In this document: positions 10,288-54,744 of the stretch, piece after piece | Numbering within the stretch: the stretch's first letter is position 1 | Layout of the letters: the number at the start of each line of letters is the position of its first letter | NCBI GenBank assembly: GCA_965223845.1 | Contig: CBDCXR010000004.1 | Coordinates: 2,144,001-2,208,000, forward strand | Direction: 5' to 3' | Source of the DNA: Planctomycetota bacterium | Lineage (GTDB): Bacteria; Planctomycetota; UBA8108; SXIK01 | DNA length: 64,000 bases | Translations under genes and position numbers: made by a program | Notes under the pieces: model-generated | Told to the model about the DNA's origin: nothing | Database searches by the model: none | Seen by the model: the letters and a program-made list of their open reading frames with translations, nothing else

Positions 10288-10346
10288 TCGCCGCGACGAG
10301 CGCGGCGCGCGCCCTCTGACGGGCAGCGCGTTCAGACCGCGAAGCG

Positions 10347-10388
10347 AAATGAGAGCGGGCCGCTCGCCGAGCGGCCCGCTCTCATTTT
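10347..10388. terminator. Perfect 20-bp inverted repeat between convergent genes (likely bidirectional terminator)
   Basis: aaatgagagcgggccgctcg-c-cgagcggcccgctctcattt. Confidence 0.8.
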
Positions 10389-10407
10389 CGTAGCGCGAAG
10401 GATGGTC

Positions 10408-11523
10408 TCAGTCGTCGGACGATTCGCCCGCGGCGACCGCCTGAGACTCGACGGCCTCGCTCTCACCGGAGTTGGTGACGTTGTCGGCGACTTCGGCGAT
10501 CGAGGAGAACTCCTTCCAGTAGTCCTCCGGCATGTCGAGCGCGATCTTGAGCGCACCGTTCGAGCCGGCGTACTGAGGTTCCTCGACGGTCGTGACCCGG
10601 CCGCCCCCGTACTCGTCGAGCGCCTCTTCGATCGCGCGGCCGAGGCCGCGAATCTGCGAGCCACCGCCTCCGAGGAGGACGTTGTTGCGCATCTTCGCCT
10701 GGAATTCGGGATCGTAGGTCGCGATGAGATCCTGGAGCGAGGCGACCGTCGGCGGAACGATCGAGTAACAAGCCTCGTAGACGAGATCGGTGATCTCGAA
10801 CTCCTGCGGCTTACCGGCGACGGGCATCGTCACCATGGCGCGATCCATGTTGCGACTGACACTCGCATGCCGCTCCTTGAAGCCGCGCACCATGTTGATC
10901 GAGAACTGCGCCTCGGAGTGGTTCTGGCGAATGAGCTCGCAGAGCTTTTCGTCGACCGCGTCACCGGCGACTTCGTGAGTCCGCTGATCTTCGGGGCCGG
11001 GCATGGTTCCGTGGACTCGACAGAGGTCCGTCGTACCGGCACCGAGGTCGACGACGAGCGTGTCGTCGAGAAAGTCGAGGCCGTACGCGACGGCGAACGG
11101 CTCGGAGCAGATGATGACGCTGTCGGTCGAATTGGACGCGGCCTCGAGAATCGCGGACTTTCCTTCGACGCTCGCCTCGGCCGGAGCGCCGATGACGGCG
11201 TAGACCGTCGCGCCCGACGGTGCCTGAGCGAGGCTGACGGCGTACTCGACGAGATCGCGGAGAGCGCGGCGGCGCTCGTCGGAATCCTGCGCGCCCTTCA
11301 CCTTGATCGACCCGCCGGCGAGCGGACGATGCAGGTTGAGCGACATCCGGTTCTCGACGGCTTCCTTGCCGTAGATGACTTCGCGGCCGCCGAACTTCTT
11401 CCGTGCGACGTGATCCTTCGGATATCCGACGTACGACCAGACCGTTTCCCGGATTCCGGTCGACGCGGTGACGGAAGTGCGACTCGTCCCGAGGTCGATC
11501 CCCAGGTAAACGGTCTCAGACAT
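10408..11523 (-). CDS. mamK: MamK-like bacterial actin
   Basis: Actin phosphate loops GIDLGTS and VDLGAGTTD, and GGGGSQ; MamK-typical segments VGYPKD, AVIGAPA, SEPFAVAYGLD, GTMPGPEDQ, GALKIALDMPEDYW; strong RBS GAGGAGGAGG. Confidence 0.85.
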   Translation of the reverse strand: MSETVYLGIDLGTSRTSVTASTGIRETVWSYVGYPKDHVARKKFGGREVIYGKEAVENRMSLNLHRPLAGGSIKVKGAQDSDERRRALRDLVEYAVSLAQAPSGATVYAVIGAPAEASVEGKSAILEAASNSTDSVIICSEPFAVAYGLDFLDDTLVVDLGAGTTDLCRVHGTMPGPEDQRTHEVAGDAVDEKLCELIRQNHSEAQFSINMVRGFKERHASVSRNMDRAMVTMPVAGKPQEFEITDLVYEACYSIVPPTVASLQDLIATYDPEFQAKMRNNVLLGGGGSQIRGLGRAIEEALDEYGGGRVTTVEEPQYAGSNGALKIALDMPEDYWKEFSSIAEVADNVTNSGESEAVESQAVAAGESSDD

Positions 11524-11707
11524 GAATCCTCCTCCTCTGAAGGTTTCTCAGCATCCCGATCGTGTTCGGGTCGGATTACGCGTAGGTGTGGTTCGATCTC
11601 TTCGGAACCGGCGATCGGGTGCCACTCAAGGATGACATCGTTTTTCGAGCTGTCCCACCCGAGCCGCAATCGGTCGGATTTTCGGAATTCGCTGCCCCGA
11701 CGATGAG

Positions 11708-13315
11708 CTACGACTTGAGTGCGGCGACTTCCTCGCGCATCTCTTTGTTCTCGCGGAAGATCGTCGCGAGCAGCTCCTTCTTCTTCTCCTTGAGCGGATC
11801 CTTGTCGATCGTCGAATGAATGACGTTTCGGAGTCCGCTTCCGGACGCTTCGAGCGCGGCGGCCAGTTCGCGAGCTTCGTCGCGCTCGCGCGTGATCGTG
11901 TCGAGGTTTCGCGCGAGACGCTGGATCTTTCGCTCGAGGAGAGTGATTTGATCCTGTTGAGCTCCGCGGCGTTCGCTTTCAACGCGTTCGCGCTCCTGCT
12001 CGAGAAGGCTTCCGATGAGGCTCCGCATCTCTTCGGCGACGTCCTCGGCGACTGGCGTGCGGCGGAGAGCCCGCGCGAGAACGCGTTCGAGGCGTTCCTC
12101 GAGCGCGATCACCGCCGCCTCGGGAAGCGTCTCAGTCTCGCCGACGAGTCCACGCTGAGTCTCGACGGCGGCCTGTGCGCGCTCGAGCTGCTTCCGGAGC
12201 ACCTCCGTCTGCTTCTCTAGACCGTAGCGCTCGGCTTCGAACGTCTCGAAACGCTCGCGGAAGACGTCCTCCGTCTGCGCGAGCATCTCCTTCCGTTCTT
12301 CGTCGGTGATCGCGCGTGTACCGATCGCTTCGGTGACCGCGCCTTGGATCAGCTCCTTGATCGTCTGGGTGTTGAGCACCTTGACGGTCTTGTGCCGCGC
12401 CGCGAGCTCGGCGGCGCTGACCGTGCGCGCCTCGCGGTGGAGGTGAACGGAAACCTCCTCGGCGACGTCGCGAGCTCCCGAGAGCACGGGCGGAGTGTCG
12501 GGATCGATTTCCGCCGGACCCATCCCCGGTAGGAGCGGCGGCAACTCCGTTTCGGATTCCGGCAGTCCCTCCGCGAGCGGCTGGATCGCGGTGGATTCTT
12601 CGGGCTCGCTTTCCGCCAAGACCGGTGGGGCACTCTCGCGCGCCCTCGGGATGCGGATCAAGGTGGACTCGTTCGGATCGGGCAGATCGATCTCTGAGGA
12701 AGCTTCCGCGCCATCTTCGCCTTCTTCTCCGTCTTCCGGGAGGAGGTGATCGCGCACAAAGCGACCGAGCTCGGTCTTTTGTTCCGGGTCGGAGTGCACC
12801 CAGCGGAGGGCGTAGGTCCGAATCTCCTCGTCCACTTCCTGATCGGACGAGAAGACGTCGTCTTCGCATTCGAGAATCTGCGCCGCGAGGTTCTTCCGAG
12901 CGGTCTTCCCGATCTGAAGAATCACGTCGACGTACATTCCGAGCGTCAATTCTTCGAGCGTGAGGACGATTCCCTTCCGCGTGCTGATGGCGGCGAGCGT
13001 GACGCACTGCGGCCCGACCCGAGGGTCGTCGAAGAAGCACGTACAGCGAAGATCGGTCGCGTCGGCGGTGGAGTCTTTCACGCGGGGCCGCTGGATCGTG
13101 GGGGCTGGATCGTAAGGATCGGCCGTCTGCGCCGCGAACGGACGACGAACGGCAGGAGGGCGGCGAGATCGCCGAATCGGTCCGAGCTCGACTCGAGACG
13201 GGATCGCGAGTCGCTGGACGACCCCCCGGCACGATGCGAACGGACAGCTACCGAAATATAGGACAGTCGCGCACGATCCGGCAAACCGGCGCAACGGCGG
13301 ACGGGGAGTCGACAC
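11708..13315 (-). CDS. Hypothetical protein: PilZ-like N-terminal domain, acidic Pro/Glu linker, long C-terminal coiled coil (start uncertain)
   Basis: Codon-like composition from about 13100 down; heptad-rich C-terminus (LERKIQRLARNL...KKKELLATIFRENKEMREE); lies directly upstream of the actin on the same strand. Confidence 0.75.
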   Translation of the reverse strand: MSTPRPPLRRFAGSCATVLYFGSCPFASCRGVVQRLAIPSRVELGPIRRSRRPPAVRRPFAAQTADPYDPAPTIQRPRVKDSTADATDLRCTCFFDDPRVGPQCVTLAAISTRKGIVLTLEELTLGMYVDVILQIGKTARKNLAAQILECEDDVFSSDQEVDEEIRTYALRWVHSDPEQKTELGRFVRDHLLPEDGEEGEDGAEASSEIDLPDPNESTLIRIPRARESAPPVLAESEPEESTAIQPLAEGLPESETELPPLLPGMGPAEIDPDTPPVLSGARDVAEEVSVHLHREARTVSAAELAARHKTVKVLNTQTIKELIQGAVTEAIGTRAITDEERKEMLAQTEDVFRERFETFEAERYGLEKQTEVLRKQLERAQAAVETQRGLVGETETLPEAAVIALEERLERVLARALRRTPVAEDVAEEMRSLIGSLLEQERERVESERRGAQQDQITLLERKIQRLARNLDTITRERDEARELAAALEASGSGLRNVIHSTIDKDPLKEKKKELLATIFRENKEMREEVAALKS

Positions 13316-13443: not shown

Positions 13444-15870
13444 TCATCTCTCCGCGAGCTCCTCGAACGATCGGTTCTCGATCGCGTAGCTCTTCCAGCT
13501 CTGAAAGTCGAAATGCCACCACTCGTACTCGTAGACGGTGAAGCCCGCATCCGCCATCGCGCGCCGAAGGAGCCCTCGCAGGTATCGCTGTCGCGACGAG
13601 CCGCCGACGTAGTTCGGGTACGCGCGCTCGGTGAACTCGTCGTAGCCGCTCAGCATCGCGACGGGCTCCCCCGTAGCGCGATCGTAAAGCGTGATGTCGA
13701 CCGCGCAACCGCGGTTGTGACGCGAGCCCTTCGCGGGATCGGCGACGAAGTCGCGCTTCGCCTCGGGCGTTCCGTCCCAGAACATCTTCGTCACGCTCCA
13801 AGGACGATACGCATCGTGGACGAGGATCCCGTACCCGCGCGCCTCGAGCGCCCGGTGGACGCGGACGAGTGCCTGGGCCGCCGGGCGCTGCAGATAGGCC
13901 GCCGCCGTGCGATAGAACGCTGCCCCCATAAAGTTGTTCGTGCCGGCGTAGCGGATGTCGTAGCGGAGGGTCGGGTCGAGGGACTTCAGCTCCACGAGAT
14001 CGGACGGTAGAAACTCGCCGTCCTCCGCGGGCGGTGTCGCCTCCCGAGCCGCGGCGCGAAGCTCCTCGATCGGCTGTGTCAGCTCGATGCGGAACGACTC
14101 TCCCAGAGATGAACTTTCGGGCCGCCGACGGAATGCGATTCCCGCCGCGGTCACCTGTTCGACGGTGCCGTCGGCACCGCGCGAAAACACGAGGCGTTCG
14201 CCGTGGTAGAGACCCCAATCGGGAAAGCGGAAGACGTCCGGAGAAATCTCGTCGATCGGGTAGAGATCGATCCACTCGATGAGAACGAAGAGCTGACCGT
14301 AGCGCTCGAGGACGAAAAGGACGTTGTGATCCTGACCGTACTCCCCGAGAAGCGGTCGCCACTTCTCCGGCGCGGGCGCAGGGAGCGCGTCCGCGATGCG
14401 AGTGAAGACGCGGCGTCCGACGCGGAGGCCGCGCCCGACCTCGACCGAGACCGGAACTCCGAAGTGGTGGCGATCGTCGGTCTGGAGCTCGCCACCGACG
14501 AGTCGCAGCTCGGCGATCGACTGGCGGCCGTCGATGAGAACGAGGCGATCGTCCCGGCGCTCCAGCTCGACGAAGCGCTGGCCGTCGCGATAGAGTCCCG
14601 CCCATTCGAGATGGCGGGGTTCCGGGGGGCGGGACGGTGCCGGCACCGTGAAAGTTCCACCGCGGCTGGTCTCGAGAAGCCCTTCGAGCGCCGTACGGGC
14701 GATGCGCCCGACCACCGCGTTCGTCACGTCGAGGGACGACGCGGCGACGACCGCGAGACGTCGATCGGGGAGAACTTGAAACGAACTCGAGTACCCGTAG
14801 ATCGCGCCATCGTGCGAGACGCGGCGTTCGCCCTGAAACTCGGACACGAAGAATCCGAGTCCGAATCCGCGCTCGGCGCCGGATTGAACCTTCCACATCG
14901 ATTCGAGCACGGGCCGCGAGACGCCGGGAACGCCGGGGCCATCGTCGTCCGAGAAAAGCGCGATCGCGAATCGTGCGAGATCCTCGACGCTCGAGTAGAG
15001 ATTCCCGGCCGAAGACGTTCCGAGCGCGAACCCGGGCGCGGCGAATCGGCGCCCGTCGAGACTCCACATGAAGGCGGAGGCGAGTCGTTCGCTCGGGATG
15101 TCACTCGCCTCGAACGAGCTCGCCGCCATTCCGAGCGGCAGTAGGAAGCGCCGTCGAATCTCTGCGGCGAACGGGCGATCCCAAGCTACCTCGAGCGCGC
15201 GACCGGCGACCGCGAGCGCAGCGTTCGAATACTTCGTCCGCGAGCCGGGTCGATAGACGAGCCGGGTCGAGTTCAAGCTCGCAACCGTATCGGCGAGCGA
15301 AGGCGACGTGGCGTCGAAATAGTGGCCGACGGGAGGCTCTCGGACTAGTCCGGAGCGGTGGGAGAGCACCTGGCGAAGCGTGAGCGGCGGCGCGTCGAAC
15401 GGATCCTGCGGAGAAAACTCGGGCAGAACATCGGTGATGGGCGCATCGAGATCGAGCTTGTCTTCGGCATCGAGCTGGGCGAGAGCGAGTGCGGTGAAGA
15501 GCTTCGATACGGATCCAACACGGTAGATCGTCTCGCCGGAAGCTCGGCGGGTACGTGCGTCGTCTTCCCACCCGAAACCGCGTGACCAAAGAAGTTCACC
15601 GTCGCGAACGAGCGCGATCGAGAGCGCAGGGATCTCCTTTGCCTCGCGTTCCGCTTCGATCCAGCTCGCCAGGTCGTCGAGCCAGCCCTCGACGGGGGCG
15701 ACTCTCGCCGCGTCGCGCGCGCTTTCGCCGGTATCTGAAGTCGAGCGGCACGAAGCTGCCCCGGCGATGATCGCCGCGACGAGAAGATACGATGTCGCCG
15801 AAGGATCGCGCCCGGTCGCGATCGAACGGAGACGACAGCCGATGCGGTAACCGCGCCTACTCCAAATCAC
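13444..15870 (-). CDS. Serine hydrolase (class C beta-lactamase-like) fused to D-Ala-D-Ala dipeptidase (M15D/VanX), probable lipoprotein
   Basis: SVSK (SxxK), YSN, HDG; C-terminal DAYRP, SRHNRGCAVD, EWWHF; lipobox-like GAASC. Confidence 0.92.
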   Translation of the reverse strand: MIWSRRGYRIGCRLRSIATGRDPSATSYLLVAAIIAGAASCRSTSDTGESARDAARVAPVEGWLDDLASWIEAEREAKEIPALSIALVRDGELLWSRGFGWEDDARTRRASGETIYRVGSVSKLFTALALAQLDAEDKLDLDAPITDVLPEFSPQDPFDAPPLTLRQVLSHRSGLVREPPVGHYFDATSPSLADTVASLNSTRLVYRPGSRTKYSNAALAVAGRALEVAWDRPFAAEIRRRFLLPLGMAASSFEASDIPSERLASAFMWSLDGRRFAAPGFALGTSSAGNLYSSVEDLARFAIALFSDDDGPGVPGVSRPVLESMWKVQSGAERGFGLGFFVSEFQGERRVSHDGAIYGYSSSFQVLPDRRLAVVAASSLDVTNAVVGRIARTALEGLLETSRGGTFTVPAPSRPPEPRHLEWAGLYRDGQRFVELERRDDRLVLIDGRQSIAELRLVGGELQTDDRHHFGVPVSVEVGRGLRVGRRVFTRIADALPAPAPEKWRPLLGEYGQDHNVLFVLERYGQLFVLIEWIDLYPIDEISPDVFRFPDWGLYHGERLVFSRGADGTVEQVTAAGIAFRRRPESSSLGESFRIELTQPIEELRAAAREATPPAEDGEFLPSDLVELKSLDPTLRYDIRYAGTNNFMGAAFYRTAAAYLQRPAAQALVRVHRALEARGYGILVHDAYRPWSVTKMFWDGTPEAKRDFVADPAKGSRHNRGCAVDITLYDRATGEPVAMLSGYDEFTERAYPNYVGGSSRQRYLRGLLRRAMADAGFTVYEYEWWHFDFQSWKSYAIENRSFEELAER

Positions 15871-53352: not shown

Positions 53353-54405
53353 TCAGACTTCGTCCCGCTCTCCTTCGAGCACGTCGACGAACGAATCGAG
53401 CGCCTCGAGGAATACTCCCGTCCCTCGCGCCACGGTCGTGAGCGGATCCGCGGTCACGCGGACCGGAAGACCCGTCTGCGCCTCGAGGAGGGCATCGAGC
53501 CCCGAGAGGAGCGCCCCGCCGCCGCAAAGATGGATCCCCGTTTCGACGAGATCGCCGGAGAGCTCGGGACCGGTGCGCTGGATCGCGGCTTCGACCGCCT
53601 CGACGATCTGACGGACCGGCTCGGCGATCGCCTCACGAATGTCGCCCGCGCTGACCGTCACCGCGCGCGGCCGTCCGGCGAGCAGATCGCGACCCCGAAT
53701 CACGTCGAATTCGTCATCGCTCCCTGGGTACGCGGCACCGAGGCGCATCTTGAGCGTCTCAGCGGCGTTCGGGCCGATGAGAATGTTGTAGTTGTGCTTT
53801 AGGTACTTCACGATCGCCTCGTCCATCGCGTCGCCCGCGACGGGGAGGTGTTCGGAGATCACGACGTCCGCGAGAGAGAGGATCGACACGTCGGTCGTTC
53901 CCCCGCCGATGTCGACGATCATGTGCGCGCGAGCCTCGTGGATCGGTATCCCGGCGCCGAGCCCCGCTGCGCGCGGCTCCTCGAGCAGGTAGACCCGGCT
54001 CGCGCCCGCTCGAGCCGCGGCATCGAAGAGCGCACGTTTCTCGACCGTGGTCAAGCCGAGGGGCACCGCCATCACGACCCGCGGACTCACCCAGCGACGG
54101 CGCTGAAACACGCGCCGAAGGAAGTTCGCGAGCATCGCCTCGGTCATCTCGAAATCGGCGATCACGCCCGCTCGCACCGGCCGAATCGCATCGATGCTCA
54201 TCGGCGTGCGCCCGAGCATCTCCTTAGCCGTCCGCCCGACCGCGTCACCGCCGAGCAGGACTTCCTGCGTCCCTTTCTTCACCGCGACGACGGTCGGTTC
54301 GTCGAGGACGATCCCCTCGCCCTGAACGCAAACGAGGGTGTTCGCGGTCCCGAGGTCGATCCCGACATCGGGGGAGAAGTAGCGGAAGATCCTCGAGAAG
54401 ACCAT
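53353..54405 (-). CDS. mreB: Rod shape-determining protein MreB
   Basis: IDLGTANT, GVIADF, VDIGGGTT, LCGGGALL, DPLTTVARG. Confidence 0.96.
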   Translation of the reverse strand: MVFSRIFRYFSPDVGIDLGTANTLVCVQGEGIVLDEPTVVAVKKGTQEVLLGGDAVGRTAKEMLGRTPMSIDAIRPVRAGVIADFEMTEAMLANFLRRVFQRRRWVSPRVVMAVPLGLTTVEKRALFDAAARAGASRVYLLEEPRAAGLGAGIPIHEARAHMIVDIGGGTTDVSILSLADVVISEHLPVAGDAMDEAIVKYLKHNYNILIGPNAAETLKMRLGAAYPGSDDEFDVIRGRDLLAGRPRAVTVSAGDIREAIAEPVRQIVEAVEAAIQRTGPELSGDLVETGIHLCGGGALLSGLDALLEAQTGLPVRVTADPLTTVARGTGVFLEALDSFVDVLEGERDEV

Positions 54406-54744
54406 GAGCGGCGGCTTCAAAAAAGTGCGTCGAAGCCCGAGATCCACGCGGGTCGGTCCGAGTTCCGGTGCCCGAACGGGCCGAGCATCGCGTGTGGCGT
54501 CCGAGCTCCTCTGTGGCGACGCCGGGCAACCGACCGCCGTTTCTCTTCGCCTCGCGCCGGATCACTCGCGGCCGCAGCATAGTCCGAGGGCGCGGCGATG
54601 TAAACGGCGCGTCCGACGCGGCGACGAGATGCCGCCCGCGGCAGGGAAGATCATCCAGGCCCCGCCCCGAACAAAAAAACACCGGGGCTCGAGAGGATCG
54701 ACTCGAGCCCCGGTGCGCTTGGTCTTTCGATCGACGACTAAGTC

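What the first reader, a model, noticed from the sequence alone, without database searches (positions are those of the whole stretch)
10408..13315. MamK-like actin plus dedicated partner gene, outside any magnetosome island and alongside a separate MreB
Seen: the actin has MamK-type rather than MreB-type signatures (VGYPKD, SEPF.V.YGLD, GT.PGPEDQ, P.DYW C-terminus) plus an acidic tail. It forms a two-gene unit closed by a strong hairpin. No mamA/B/E/M/O/P/Q-like gene is recognisable in the 64 kb, and a canonical mreB lies 42 kb away. Known: MamK filaments position magnetosomes through adaptor proteins such as the acidic MamJ. Inference: a stand-alone actin/adaptor module that positions some other cargo (organelle, granule, nucleoid or division site) in a phylum that generally lacks FtsZ. 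This is the best candidate here for an undescribed system.
Basis: partly seen in the sequence, partly recalled or inferred. Interest (0 to 1): 0.8.

Follow-up and report, generated by a model that had tools for sequence, protein, structure and literature searches.

The report
Planctomycete MamK-like actin with docking adaptor
A non-magnetic planctomycete carries an actin-like filament gene of the magnetosome MamK type next to a conserved, unnamed partner gene whose last helix is predicted to plug into the actin, which gives a testable handle on a little-studied bacterial cytoskeleton.

Summary
Window 10408-11523(-) encodes a MamK-family actin: NCBIfam MamK 384 bits (cut-off 400), MreB 59; PDB MamK E 1e-74. 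Window 11708-13081(-) encodes a 457-aa partner with no family hit of its own.

The genome is 7.9 Mb and 91.7% complete. I found no magnetosome genes and no FtsZ. A true MreB lies 42 kb away.

In a tree, the actin falls with saltatorellin, the MamK-like actin named in a 2019 preprint, and apart from magnetosome-linked MamK.

The partner has a degenerate PilZ barrel, an acidic disordered linker, a helical region and a conserved C-terminal helix. A profile of its C-terminus hits the ORF directly upstream of the actin in:
- 60 of 61 close relatives
- 50 of 66 more distant planctomycete relatives, including the saltatorellin locus
- 0 of 7 comparison loci: 3 magnetosome mamK loci, 3 archaeal homologues and the genome's own BeeR-like paralogue

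A complex model places the last helix in the actin cleft: score 0.71, best control 0.00.

My best reading is a filament-plus-adaptor module. Its cargo is unknown. The actin kind is known. I found the partner in no paper, but this scan has met the module before on other DNA.

The parts
10408..11523 (-). MamK-family (saltatorellin-clade) actin-like ATPase, 371 aa, with a 35-aa acidic C-terminal extension
   Evidence: NCBIfam MamK 384 bits (cut-off 400), BeeR 195, MreB 59. PDB MamK 5jyg E 9.7e-75. The nucleotide-binding motifs D10/G12, D159/G161 and G286-G288 are invariant in alignment A2. Tree position.
11527..11538 (-). purine-rich ribosome-binding site AGAGGAGGAGGA in front of the actin ATG
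   Evidence: Read directly from the sequence.
11708..13081 (-). partner (adaptor) gene, 457 aa from GTG 13081; the open frame runs on to 13315
   Evidence: The gene product on record is 457 aa (P0001). It has no Pfam or NCBIfam hit of its own. It is conserved directly upstream of the actin in relatives.
12743..13054 (-). N-terminal PilZ-fold beta-barrel plus helix (partner residues 10-113), without the canonical c-di-GMP motifs
   Evidence: AF2 pLDDT is 92-96 over most of it. The best Foldseek PDB matches are PilZ domains: YcgR E 4.6e-5, Alg44 TM 0.74. Pfam PilZ matches 4 of 33 relatives, best E 1.9e-5. Motifs were read.
12476..12724 (-). acidic, proline-rich disordered linker (partner residues 120-202)
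   Evidence: pLDDT is under 50 across 120-202. This region is not conserved in A1.
11813..12475 (-). conserved helical / coiled-coil region (partner residues 203-423), with invariant E363 R364 L382 K385 R388 L389 L393
   Evidence: Long helices in the AF2 model. Invariant columns of A1. 34-44% identity to upstream ORFs of relatives.
11717..11812 (-). C-terminal amphipathic docking helix (partner residues 424-455; G424 D428 K434 L437 N445 R449 conserved)
   Evidence: It forms the predicted interface with actin residues 119-126, 137-153, 172-174 and 327-339. Score 0.71 against a best control of 0.00. Conservation.
10346..10390 (-). strong hairpin after the actin stop, between convergent genes (terminator-like)
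   Evidence: -46.8 kcal/mol, z -6.72, 0 of 200 shuffles as stable. Sequence.
13255..13284 (-). weak sigma-70-like promoter match upstream of the partner gene
   Evidence: TTGCCG-18-TATATT, 9 of 12 matches. One site was found against 0.3 expected. This is a consensus match only.

Best explanation
The two genes encode a cytoskeletal filament protein and its dedicated adaptor.

The actin is a MamK-family ATPase of the planctomycete saltatorellin clade, and it most likely polymerises. The partner is a modular adaptor made of four parts:
- a PilZ-fold head that has lost the usual c-di-GMP motifs and probably binds another protein or structure
- a floppy acidic linker
- a long helical region, probably a dimerising coiled coil
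- a conserved amphipathic C-terminal helix

The C-terminal helix is predicted to insert into the hydrophobic cleft between actin subdomains IA and IIA. As I recall it, ParR uses the same cleft on ParM. The adaptor would therefore tether filament ends or subunits to whatever its head recognises, so that filament growth or treadmilling positions that cargo.

Status of each step:
- Shown by computation: family membership, domain anatomy, conserved gene pairing, absence of magnetosome genes.
- Supported by a model with controls: binding through the last helix.
- Inferred: polymerisation, by homology to saltatorellin and MamK.
- Inferred: dimerisation, the adaptor role and the cargo.
For: Actin family:
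- NCBIfam MamK 384 bits against MreB 59; PDB MamK E 9.7e-75.
- In the careful tree the actin sits in a 9-row clade (support 100/100), inside a 15-row clade with S. ferox saltatorellin (97/90), inside a 33-row clade holding 16 of 17 labelled planctomycete rows (95/97). This is separate from the 16-row clade that holds the three magnetosome-cluster mamK genes (100/98).
- Saltatorellin fused to mCherry formed filaments in two hosts (bioRxiv 10.1101/817700, passages read).

Pairing:
- The C-terminal profile hits the ORF directly upstream, same strand, in 60 of 61 distinct close relatives (at least 64% identity, at least 600 bp upstream available).
- It does so in 50 of 66 distant planctomycete relatives (48-63% identity), including the saltatorellin locus at 19.5 bits.
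- It does so in 0 of 7 loci of magnetosome mamK, archaeal homologues or the own BeeR-like paralogue.
- No other neighbour is widely conserved.

Binding:
- Score 0.71 (runs 0.67, 0.74, 0.71), best of 3 controls 0.00.
- The runs agree in at least 55% of contacts; partner pLDDT is at least 58.
- This mark was reached by 58 of 80 solved complexes and 2 of 110 mismatched pairs. The counts hold only roughly, because I supplied my own alignments.
- The interface helix 424-455 holds the invariant or nearly invariant G424, D428, K434, L437, N445 and R449.

Head domain: a PilZ fold.
Against: - No experiment exists on this protein pair, and the complex score is only the model's own confidence.
- A second invariant block of the partner (E363 to L393) lies outside the predicted interface and is unexplained.
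- The actin scores just under NCBI's MamK cut-off.
- The partner's own sequence matches no Pfam model.
- The PilZ head is missing from 10 of the 44 close relatives that have enough upstream sequence, and from all 56 such distant relatives. The head, and hence the cargo, is therefore not the conserved core of the system.
- Binding in the inter-subunit cleft could equally mean capping, nucleation or monomer sequestration rather than cargo tethering.
- Profile hits in the distant tier are weak (19-44 bits) and coiled coils attract spurious matches. Their fixed position is the only control.
- The 184-bp gap and the actin's own ribosome site leave co-transcription unproven.
Confidence: 0.6

Rival explanations
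1. The partner is a regulator of polymerisation (nucleator, end-capper or monomer-sequestering factor) rather than a cargo adaptor. Its helix occupies the cleft that the next subunit would use.
For: - The predicted interface is the IA/IIA cleft: actin 137-153 and 327-339.
- The conserved core of the partner family is only the C-terminal helical part, and heads vary or are absent.
- Many close relatives carry extra short repeats after the helix, TRRVVRP in the linker and DPDDxPWE..VKKI..PPPLERK at the end. These could bind further subunits.
Against: - The own protein lacks those repeats.
- A folded head, a long linker and a coiled coil are more than a capper or sequestering factor would need.
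- No test separates the two readings here, and they are not exclusive.
Confidence: 0.25
2. A ParMRC-like DNA segregation system: an actin-like motor plus an adaptor that binds a centromere.
For: The layout is an actin-like ATPase plus an adaptor whose C-terminal helix is predicted to enter the same cleft that ParR uses on ParM. The ParR detail is recalled, not tested.
Against: - No DNA-binding domain was found in the partner.
- There are no iterated repeats upstream or between the genes, only two-copy 9-10 nt matches.
- The gene order is adaptor first.
- The pair is chromosomal and conserved across a phylum: 148 of 401 genomes have the actin.
- ParM-type Pfam models score only marginally.
Confidence: 0.05
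3. An ordinary mamK displaced from a magnetosome gene cluster elsewhere in the genome.
For: MamK is the best-matching named family.
Against: - tblastn with MamE, J-position, L, M, N, O, P, A and Q from two real clusters (named) gives 0 hits for MamM, MamP, MamN, MamL and the J-position protein.
- It gives only scattered generic protease, TPR or LemA matches for the rest.
- MamP and MamB profiles reach at most 24 and 33 bits, like non-magnetic control genomes.
- The genome is 91.7% complete, with 7.87 Mb in one contig.
- The actin lies outside the clade of cluster-linked MamK.
Confidence: 0.01
4. The two genes are merely neighbours. The conserved adjacency reflects co-regulation or history, not physical interaction.
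For: The 184-bp gap and a separate ribosome site. No experimental data. The tool's own note that 7 of 44 blindly picked neighbours pass the complex test.
Against: The adjacency survives down to about 50% actin identity and through changes of the partner's head domain. The complex model passes with all three controls at 0.00, on the most conserved helix.
Confidence: 0.1

Closest known systems
Saltatorellin, the MamK-like actin of Saltatorellus ferox Poly30 (bioRxiv 10.1101/817700; locus L102:2745-3827)
   Same: - Same well-supported clade (97/90 and 95/97), at 56% identity.
- Also found in non-magnetic, FtsZ-less planctomycetes.
- Its gene is likewise preceded by an ORF that carries the C-terminal docking motif (L102:1671-2537; 19.5 bits; sequence read).
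   Different: - The window's actin belongs to a distinct subclade (100/100) with a C-terminal extension after the YW motif.
- Its partner has a PilZ-fold head, which is absent from the 288-aa Saltatorellus ORF.
- The preprint text contains none of the words coiled, operon, upstream, PilZ or neighbo, so it does not describe a partner.
- Saltatorellin passes NCBI's MamK cut-off (419.9 bits); this actin does not (384).
MamK with its adaptors (MamJ and others) in magnetotactic bacteria; PDB 5jyg, 5ljv
   Same: Best-matching solved structure and named family, at 39-41% identity. The logic is the same: an actin filament plus an acidic or coiled-coil adaptor. The adaptor biology is recalled, and also appears in abstracts listed.
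   Different: - No magnetosome genes are present.
- The actin falls in a separate clade.
- The partner profile finds nothing next to 3 real mamK genes.
- The MamJ-position protein has no match in this genome.
ParM-ParR (type II plasmid partition)
   Same: An adaptor whose C-terminal helix is thought to enter the IA/IIA cleft of an actin-like ATPase. The ParR detail is recalled; here the interface is only predicted.
   Different: No sequence relation, no DNA-binding domain and no centromere repeats. The pair is chromosomal and phylum-wide.
BeeR, the MamK-related tubule-forming actin of Verrucomicrobiota (PMC11929497)
   Same: Another MamK relative in non-magnetic PVC bacteria (passages read).
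   Different: This actin scores only 195 bits against a cut-off of 530. A different gene of the same genome (C4:500532-501560) is the BeeR-like one, at 384.7 bits.
PilZ-domain adaptor proteins (YcgR, MotI/DgrA, MapZ, Alg44)
   Same: The partner's head has the same fold.
   Different: The own sequence has neither RxxxR nor D/NxSxxG. It reads ..TDLRCTC.. and AISTRKG. c-di-GMP binding is therefore doubtful.

Membership tests
MamK family (NCBIfam NF040964) | Score at or above the curated cut-off of 400 bits | tested here: not met
   384 bits. MamK is the best family by far, but the score is 16 bits short.
MamK family (functional sense) | Encoded in, or together with, a magnetosome gene cluster | tested here: not met
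   No MamM, P, N, L or B over threshold anywhere in the 91.7%-complete genome.
MamK family (functional sense) | Branches with magnetosome-cluster-linked MamK | tested here: not met
   The cluster-linked MamK rows form a separate clade at 100/98. The backbone between the major clades is unresolved.
Saltatorellin-type planctomycete actin | Same clade as S. ferox saltatorellin | tested here: met
   A 15-row clade at 97/90 and a 33-row clade at 95/97.
Saltatorellin-type planctomycete actin | Forms filaments | not testable with these tools
   The ATP-binding motifs are invariant. Filament formation is reported only for the S. ferox protein.
MreB | Score over the MreB cut-offs (293 / 365.75 bits) | tested here: not met
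   58.7 and 46.7 bits. The real MreB is at window 53353-54447.
BeeR (NF053558) | Score over 530 bits | tested here: not met
   194.7 bits.
ParMRC partition system | Adaptor with a DNA-binding domain, plus iterated centromere repeats | tested here: not met
   No such domain and no repeat arrays.
PilZ domain (partner head) | PilZ beta-barrel fold | tested here: met
   The best-ranked Foldseek matches are PilZ domains, TM up to 0.74, on a segment with pLDDT above 90.
PilZ domain (partner head) | Pfam PF07238 match | tested here: inconclusive
   The own protein has no hit. 4 of 33 relatives match, best E 1.9e-5. One relative carries a precomputed PF07238.
PilZ domain (partner head) | c-di-GMP motifs RxxxR and D/NxSxxG | tested here: not met
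   Absent in the own sequence. Relatives keep at most one of the two. The motif definitions are recalled.
MamJ | Sequence similarity to the protein encoded just upstream of mamK in Magnetospirillum-type clusters | tested here: not met
   The J-position protein of locus L091 has 0 tblastn hits in the genome. That protein itself matched no NCBIfam model, so its identity as MamJ rests on position only.

The most novel reading that the evidence does not exclude
The pair is the core of an actin-based positioning or division machine specific to FtsZ-less Planctomycetota. In this reading a treadmilling saltatorellin-type filament has its ends tracked, ParR-fashion, by a dimeric adaptor through the conserved C-terminal helix. 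The adaptor's exchangeable head plugs the filament into different cellular structures and into second-messenger signalling. The heads seen are a PilZ fold here, a dead GGDEF in another genome according to an earlier unchecked note of this scan, and possibly membrane or LysM-like proteins in a third lineage.
Probability: 0.15. Interest if true: 0.85.

Novelty: new variant of a known kind. Interest (0 to 1): 0.6.

Why it matters
According to the papers I read, Planctomycetota divide without FtsZ, and the machinery that shapes and divides them is largely unknown. A MamK-type actin occurs in 148 of the 401 sampled genomes of the phylum, yet it has only been named and imaged heterologously.

A conserved partner with a predicted 32-residue docking helix turns this orphan filament into a system with concrete experiments:
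- peptide binding assays
- point mutants
- pull-downs with the PilZ head to find the cargo

It also offers a second natural example, unrelated in sequence, of the ParR-type way of holding an actin-like filament.

Tried and rejected
- RNA evidence: no RNA holder was listed.
- Word-indexed protein search with the partner gave only 2 and then 10 proteins. This was too few to map the family. The only name given by a source was 'hypothetical protein'.
- ESM Atlas: the nearest clusters are unnamed planctomycete proteins (0.94, 0.93) and a PilZ cluster (0.90). Recognition was 2032, below the 2300 mark, so this is a lead only.
- Rosetta-stone idea: long actin fusions of 523-1232 aa exist in the library, but none of them matches my partner profiles.
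- FimV/LysM reading of the partner-like proteins in loci of the L059 type: only one sub-threshold LysM hit, 18.2 bits against a cut-off of 20.9, so it stays a weak lead.
- Comparing the cleft residues between clades showed mostly conservative differences and decided nothing.
- No other gene of the window is conserved beside the pair beyond the closest relative.
- The antisense ORF 10402-11706(+) is a high-GC shadow of the actin gene; its hits simply mirror the actin's.
- The saltatorellin preprint's supplementary tables could not be seen. They may list planctomycete actin homologues that overlap this clade.
Full report
**What is there**

On the minus strand, window 11708-13081 encodes a 457-aa protein. 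Window 10408-11523 encodes a 371-aa actin-like protein.

A 184-bp gap separates the two genes. The actin has its own strong purine-rich ribosome site. A 16-bp perfect hairpin follows the actin stop: -46.8 kcal/mol, z -6.7, and 0 of 200 shuffles fold as well. It lies between the actin and a convergent Gfo/Idh/MocA oxidoreductase gene.

Upstream of the partner, after a 362-bp gap, lies an 808-aa fusion of a beta-lactamase-fold domain and an M15 D-Ala-D-Ala dipeptidase. It is not conserved beside the pair.

**The actin**

- NCBIfam ranks MamK first at 384 bits (cut-off 400), then BeeR at 195 and MreB at 59.
- Among solved structures, MamK is best (5jyg, E 9.7e-75). Next come 8r2n, deposited as 'Actin/actin family protein' (2e-38), and MreB (7e-9).
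- The nucleotide-binding glycines and aspartates are invariant in a 19-sequence alignment.
- Identity to three mamK genes that sit in real magnetosome clusters is 39-41%. I named the flanking MamE, M, O, P, A, Q, N and L genes of those clusters with NCBIfam.

**Genome context**

The window lies in a 7.93-Mb genome of 4 contigs, 91.7% complete. Record titles of relatives place it in Planctomycetota.

- tblastn with ten proteins from the two real clusters found nothing for MamM, MamP, MamN, MamL or the MamJ-position protein. For the others it found only scattered generic matches.
- The MamP and MamB profiles reach 24 and 33 bits, as they do in non-magnetic control genomes.
- The FtsZ profile finds nothing, although it rings in 13 of 14 control genomes.
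- A genuine MreB (423.5 bits) is at 53353-54447.
- The genome has two further actin-like genes. One is BeeR-like (384.7 bits) and one is more divergent.

**Distribution and phylogeny**

The actin has matches at E <= 1e-30 in 148 of 401 sampled genomes of the phylum, counting G000 itself. By my count from that table, 38 of the 400 other genomes have close matches at E <= 1e-150. Most other matching genomes lie at 51-58% identity; a few give weaker hits.

The same-order family f3 has none in its 5 genomes, and several large families also have none.

A search of 1.84 billion representatives gave 164 proteins at E <= 1e-30.

The tree used 91 rows. Two long-branched rows were left out, and fragments below about 300 aligned residues had been dropped beforehand. 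It shows:

- The window's actin sits in a clade of close relatives with support 100/100.
- That clade sits inside a 15-row clade with S. ferox saltatorellin (97/90).
- That clade sits inside a 33-row clade holding 16 of the 17 labelled planctomycete rows (95/97). One labelled row is unresolved at the base.
- The cluster-linked MamK genes lie in a different 16-row clade (100/98).
- The BeeR-like genes form another clade (100/100).
- The backbone between these clades is unresolved.

Saltatorellin was named in bioRxiv 10.1101/817700. I read passages of that preprint. It reports filaments of an mCherry fusion in E. coli and Magnetospirillum. I fetched its gene with the published primer. It scores 419.9 bits against the MamK model.

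**The partner**

The partner has no Pfam or NCBIfam match of its own and no significant PDB sequence match (best E 0.25). An AlphaFold model built on a 33-sequence alignment has mean pLDDT 73 and shows these parts:

| Residues | Feature | Support |
|---|---|---|
| 10-113 | Beta-barrel with a helix | pLDDT 92-96 |
| 120-202 | Disordered, acidic and proline-rich linker | pLDDT under 50 |
| 203-457 | Long helices | Model |

For the barrel, the best-ranked Foldseek PDB matches are PilZ domains: YcgR, MotI, Alg44, MapZ, BcsA, MrkH and PlzA. Pfam PilZ matches 4 of 33 relatives.

The two c-di-GMP motifs, as I recall them, are absent from the own sequence. Relatives keep at most one of them.

Invariant residues cluster in two blocks:

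- E363, R364, L382, K385, R388, L389, L393
- the last helix: G424, D428, K434, L437, N445, R449

**Is the pair conserved?**

tblastn with the partner found its C-terminal half next to the actin in 27 of 29 short loci from other genomes. Of the two misses, one had only 40 bp of upstream sequence and the other was recovered later by the profile.

I then built profiles from the alignment and searched all ORFs of 182 loci. After removing duplicate actins, 142 distinct actins remained of 171 loci.

| Set of loci | C-terminal profile hits the ORF directly upstream, same strand | PilZ head in that ORF |
|---|---|---|
| Close relatives (at least 64% identity) | 60 of 61 | 34 of 44 with at least 2.4 kb upstream |
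| Distant planctomycete relatives (48-63%) | 50 of 66 | 0 of 56 |
| Magnetosome mamK, archaeal homologues, own BeeR-like paralogue | 0 of 7 | not applicable |

- Hits anywhere else in these loci number 7 in the close set and 1 in the distant set.
- The profile came from close relatives only. It missed at least one partner that looks homologous by eye (L083), so the figure for the distant tier is a lower bound.
- The ORF upstream of saltatorellin carries the motif.
- No other neighbouring gene is widely conserved.

**Do they bind?**

I sent the actin and partner residues 205-457, each with its alignment, to the complex predictor.

- Scores were 0.67, 0.74 and 0.71, median 0.71. The best of three controls was 0.00.
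- The runs share at least 55% of their contacts, and partner pLDDT is at least 58.
- This mark was reached by 58 of 80 solved complexes and 2 of 110 mismatched pairs. The counts hold only roughly, because I supplied my own alignments.
- The confident interface is partner 424-455 against actin 119-126, 137-153, 172-174 and 327-339. This places the last, most conserved helix in the cleft formed by the SEPF..YGLD segment and the C-terminal P.DYW segment.
- I know of no solved MamK-partner complex, so a pass from memory seems unlikely. The geometry does resemble ParR on ParM, which I recall but did not test.

**Interpretation**

The best-supported reading is a filament plus a dedicated adaptor, in which the conserved helix is the docking element. 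The head, where present, would define what is attached.

Because the helix sits in the cleft used for subunit contacts, the protein may act at filament ends or on monomers. I cannot separate a role as capper, nucleator or sequestering factor from an adaptor role.

- A partition-system reading is unlikely. There is no DNA-binding domain and there are no repeat arrays.
- A displaced mamK is excluded as far as a 91.7%-complete genome allows.
- Any link to division or shape in an FtsZ-less phylum is inference only.

**Novelty**

The actin kind is in print as saltatorellin. Related MamK-like actins of non-magnetic PVC bacteria are also in print as BeeR (PMC11929497, passages read).

I found no paper that describes the partner:

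- Full-text searches for MamK/Planctomycetes/actin-like, MamK-like/Planctomycetota, saltatorellin, and PilZ/actin-like/Planctomycet/coiled-coil returned nothing on it.
- The preprint contains none of the words coiled, operon, upstream, PilZ or neighbo. Its supplements were not visible to me.
- Database sources call relatives 'hypothetical protein'.

This scan has already met the same module on other DNA. One earlier case has the same PilZ-headed form. Several are in the saltatorellin tier and carry an extra kinase-like ATPase gene. That ATPase gene is not beside the pair here.

Noticed in passing
G000:C4:500532-501560 (locus L002:1501-2529): The same genome has a BeeR-like actin paralogue. It scores 384.7 bits against BeeR (cut-off 530) and groups 100/100 with BeeR-like representatives. 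Its upstream ORF of 409 aa is not coiled-coil and does not match the partner profiles.
   Followed up: partly
G000:C4:7149207-7150061 (locus L003:1321-2388): A third, divergent actin-like gene of 355 aa. It scores BeeR 131 bits and MamK 109 bits, and has 24% identity to the window's actin. It is very long-branched and was left out of the final tree.
   Followed up: partly
loci L043, L047, L055, L057, L037, L038 and others (partner ORFs upstream of the actin): Many close relatives' partners carry 2-5 copies of a basic TRRVVRP-like motif in the linker. They also carry one or two C-terminal repeats of the form DPDDxPWE ... VKKI ... PPPLERK after the docking helix. The window's protein and its nearest relative lack both. 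These motifs could be further actin-binding or proline-rich recognition sites.
   Followed up: no
loci L059, L061-L066, L075 (records labelled Verrucomicrobia or Akkermansia, actin 70-71% identical): Here the actin is flanked by two or three different proteins that each end in the docking-type motif, including one directly downstream (64-70 bits). One of them has a sub-threshold LysM hit and an apparent membrane segment.
   Followed up: partly
protein P0056 (768 aa): A library protein joins an FtsZ-like N-terminal domain, read by eye, to a MamK-clade actin domain. It branches beside the cluster-linked MamK genes.
   Followed up: no
proteins P0016-P0030, P0038, P0039 (523-1232 aa): A well-supported clade (98/92) of MamK-family actins has long N-terminal extensions: a short coiled coil, very acidic low-complexity sequence, then a basic stretch. 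None matches the partner profiles.
   Followed up: partly
window 13444-15870 (-): An 808-aa fusion of a beta-lactamase-fold serine hydrolase and an M15 D-Ala-D-Ala dipeptidase lies directly upstream of the pair. It is cell-wall related but is not conserved next to the pair in relatives.
   Followed up: partly
loci L088-L090 (ANME-2 / Methanosarcinales MAG records): Archaeal MAG records hold MamK-family actins at 41-42% identity to the window's. One representative scores 370.8 bits against the MamK model. They have no partner-type ORF upstream.
   Followed up: partly
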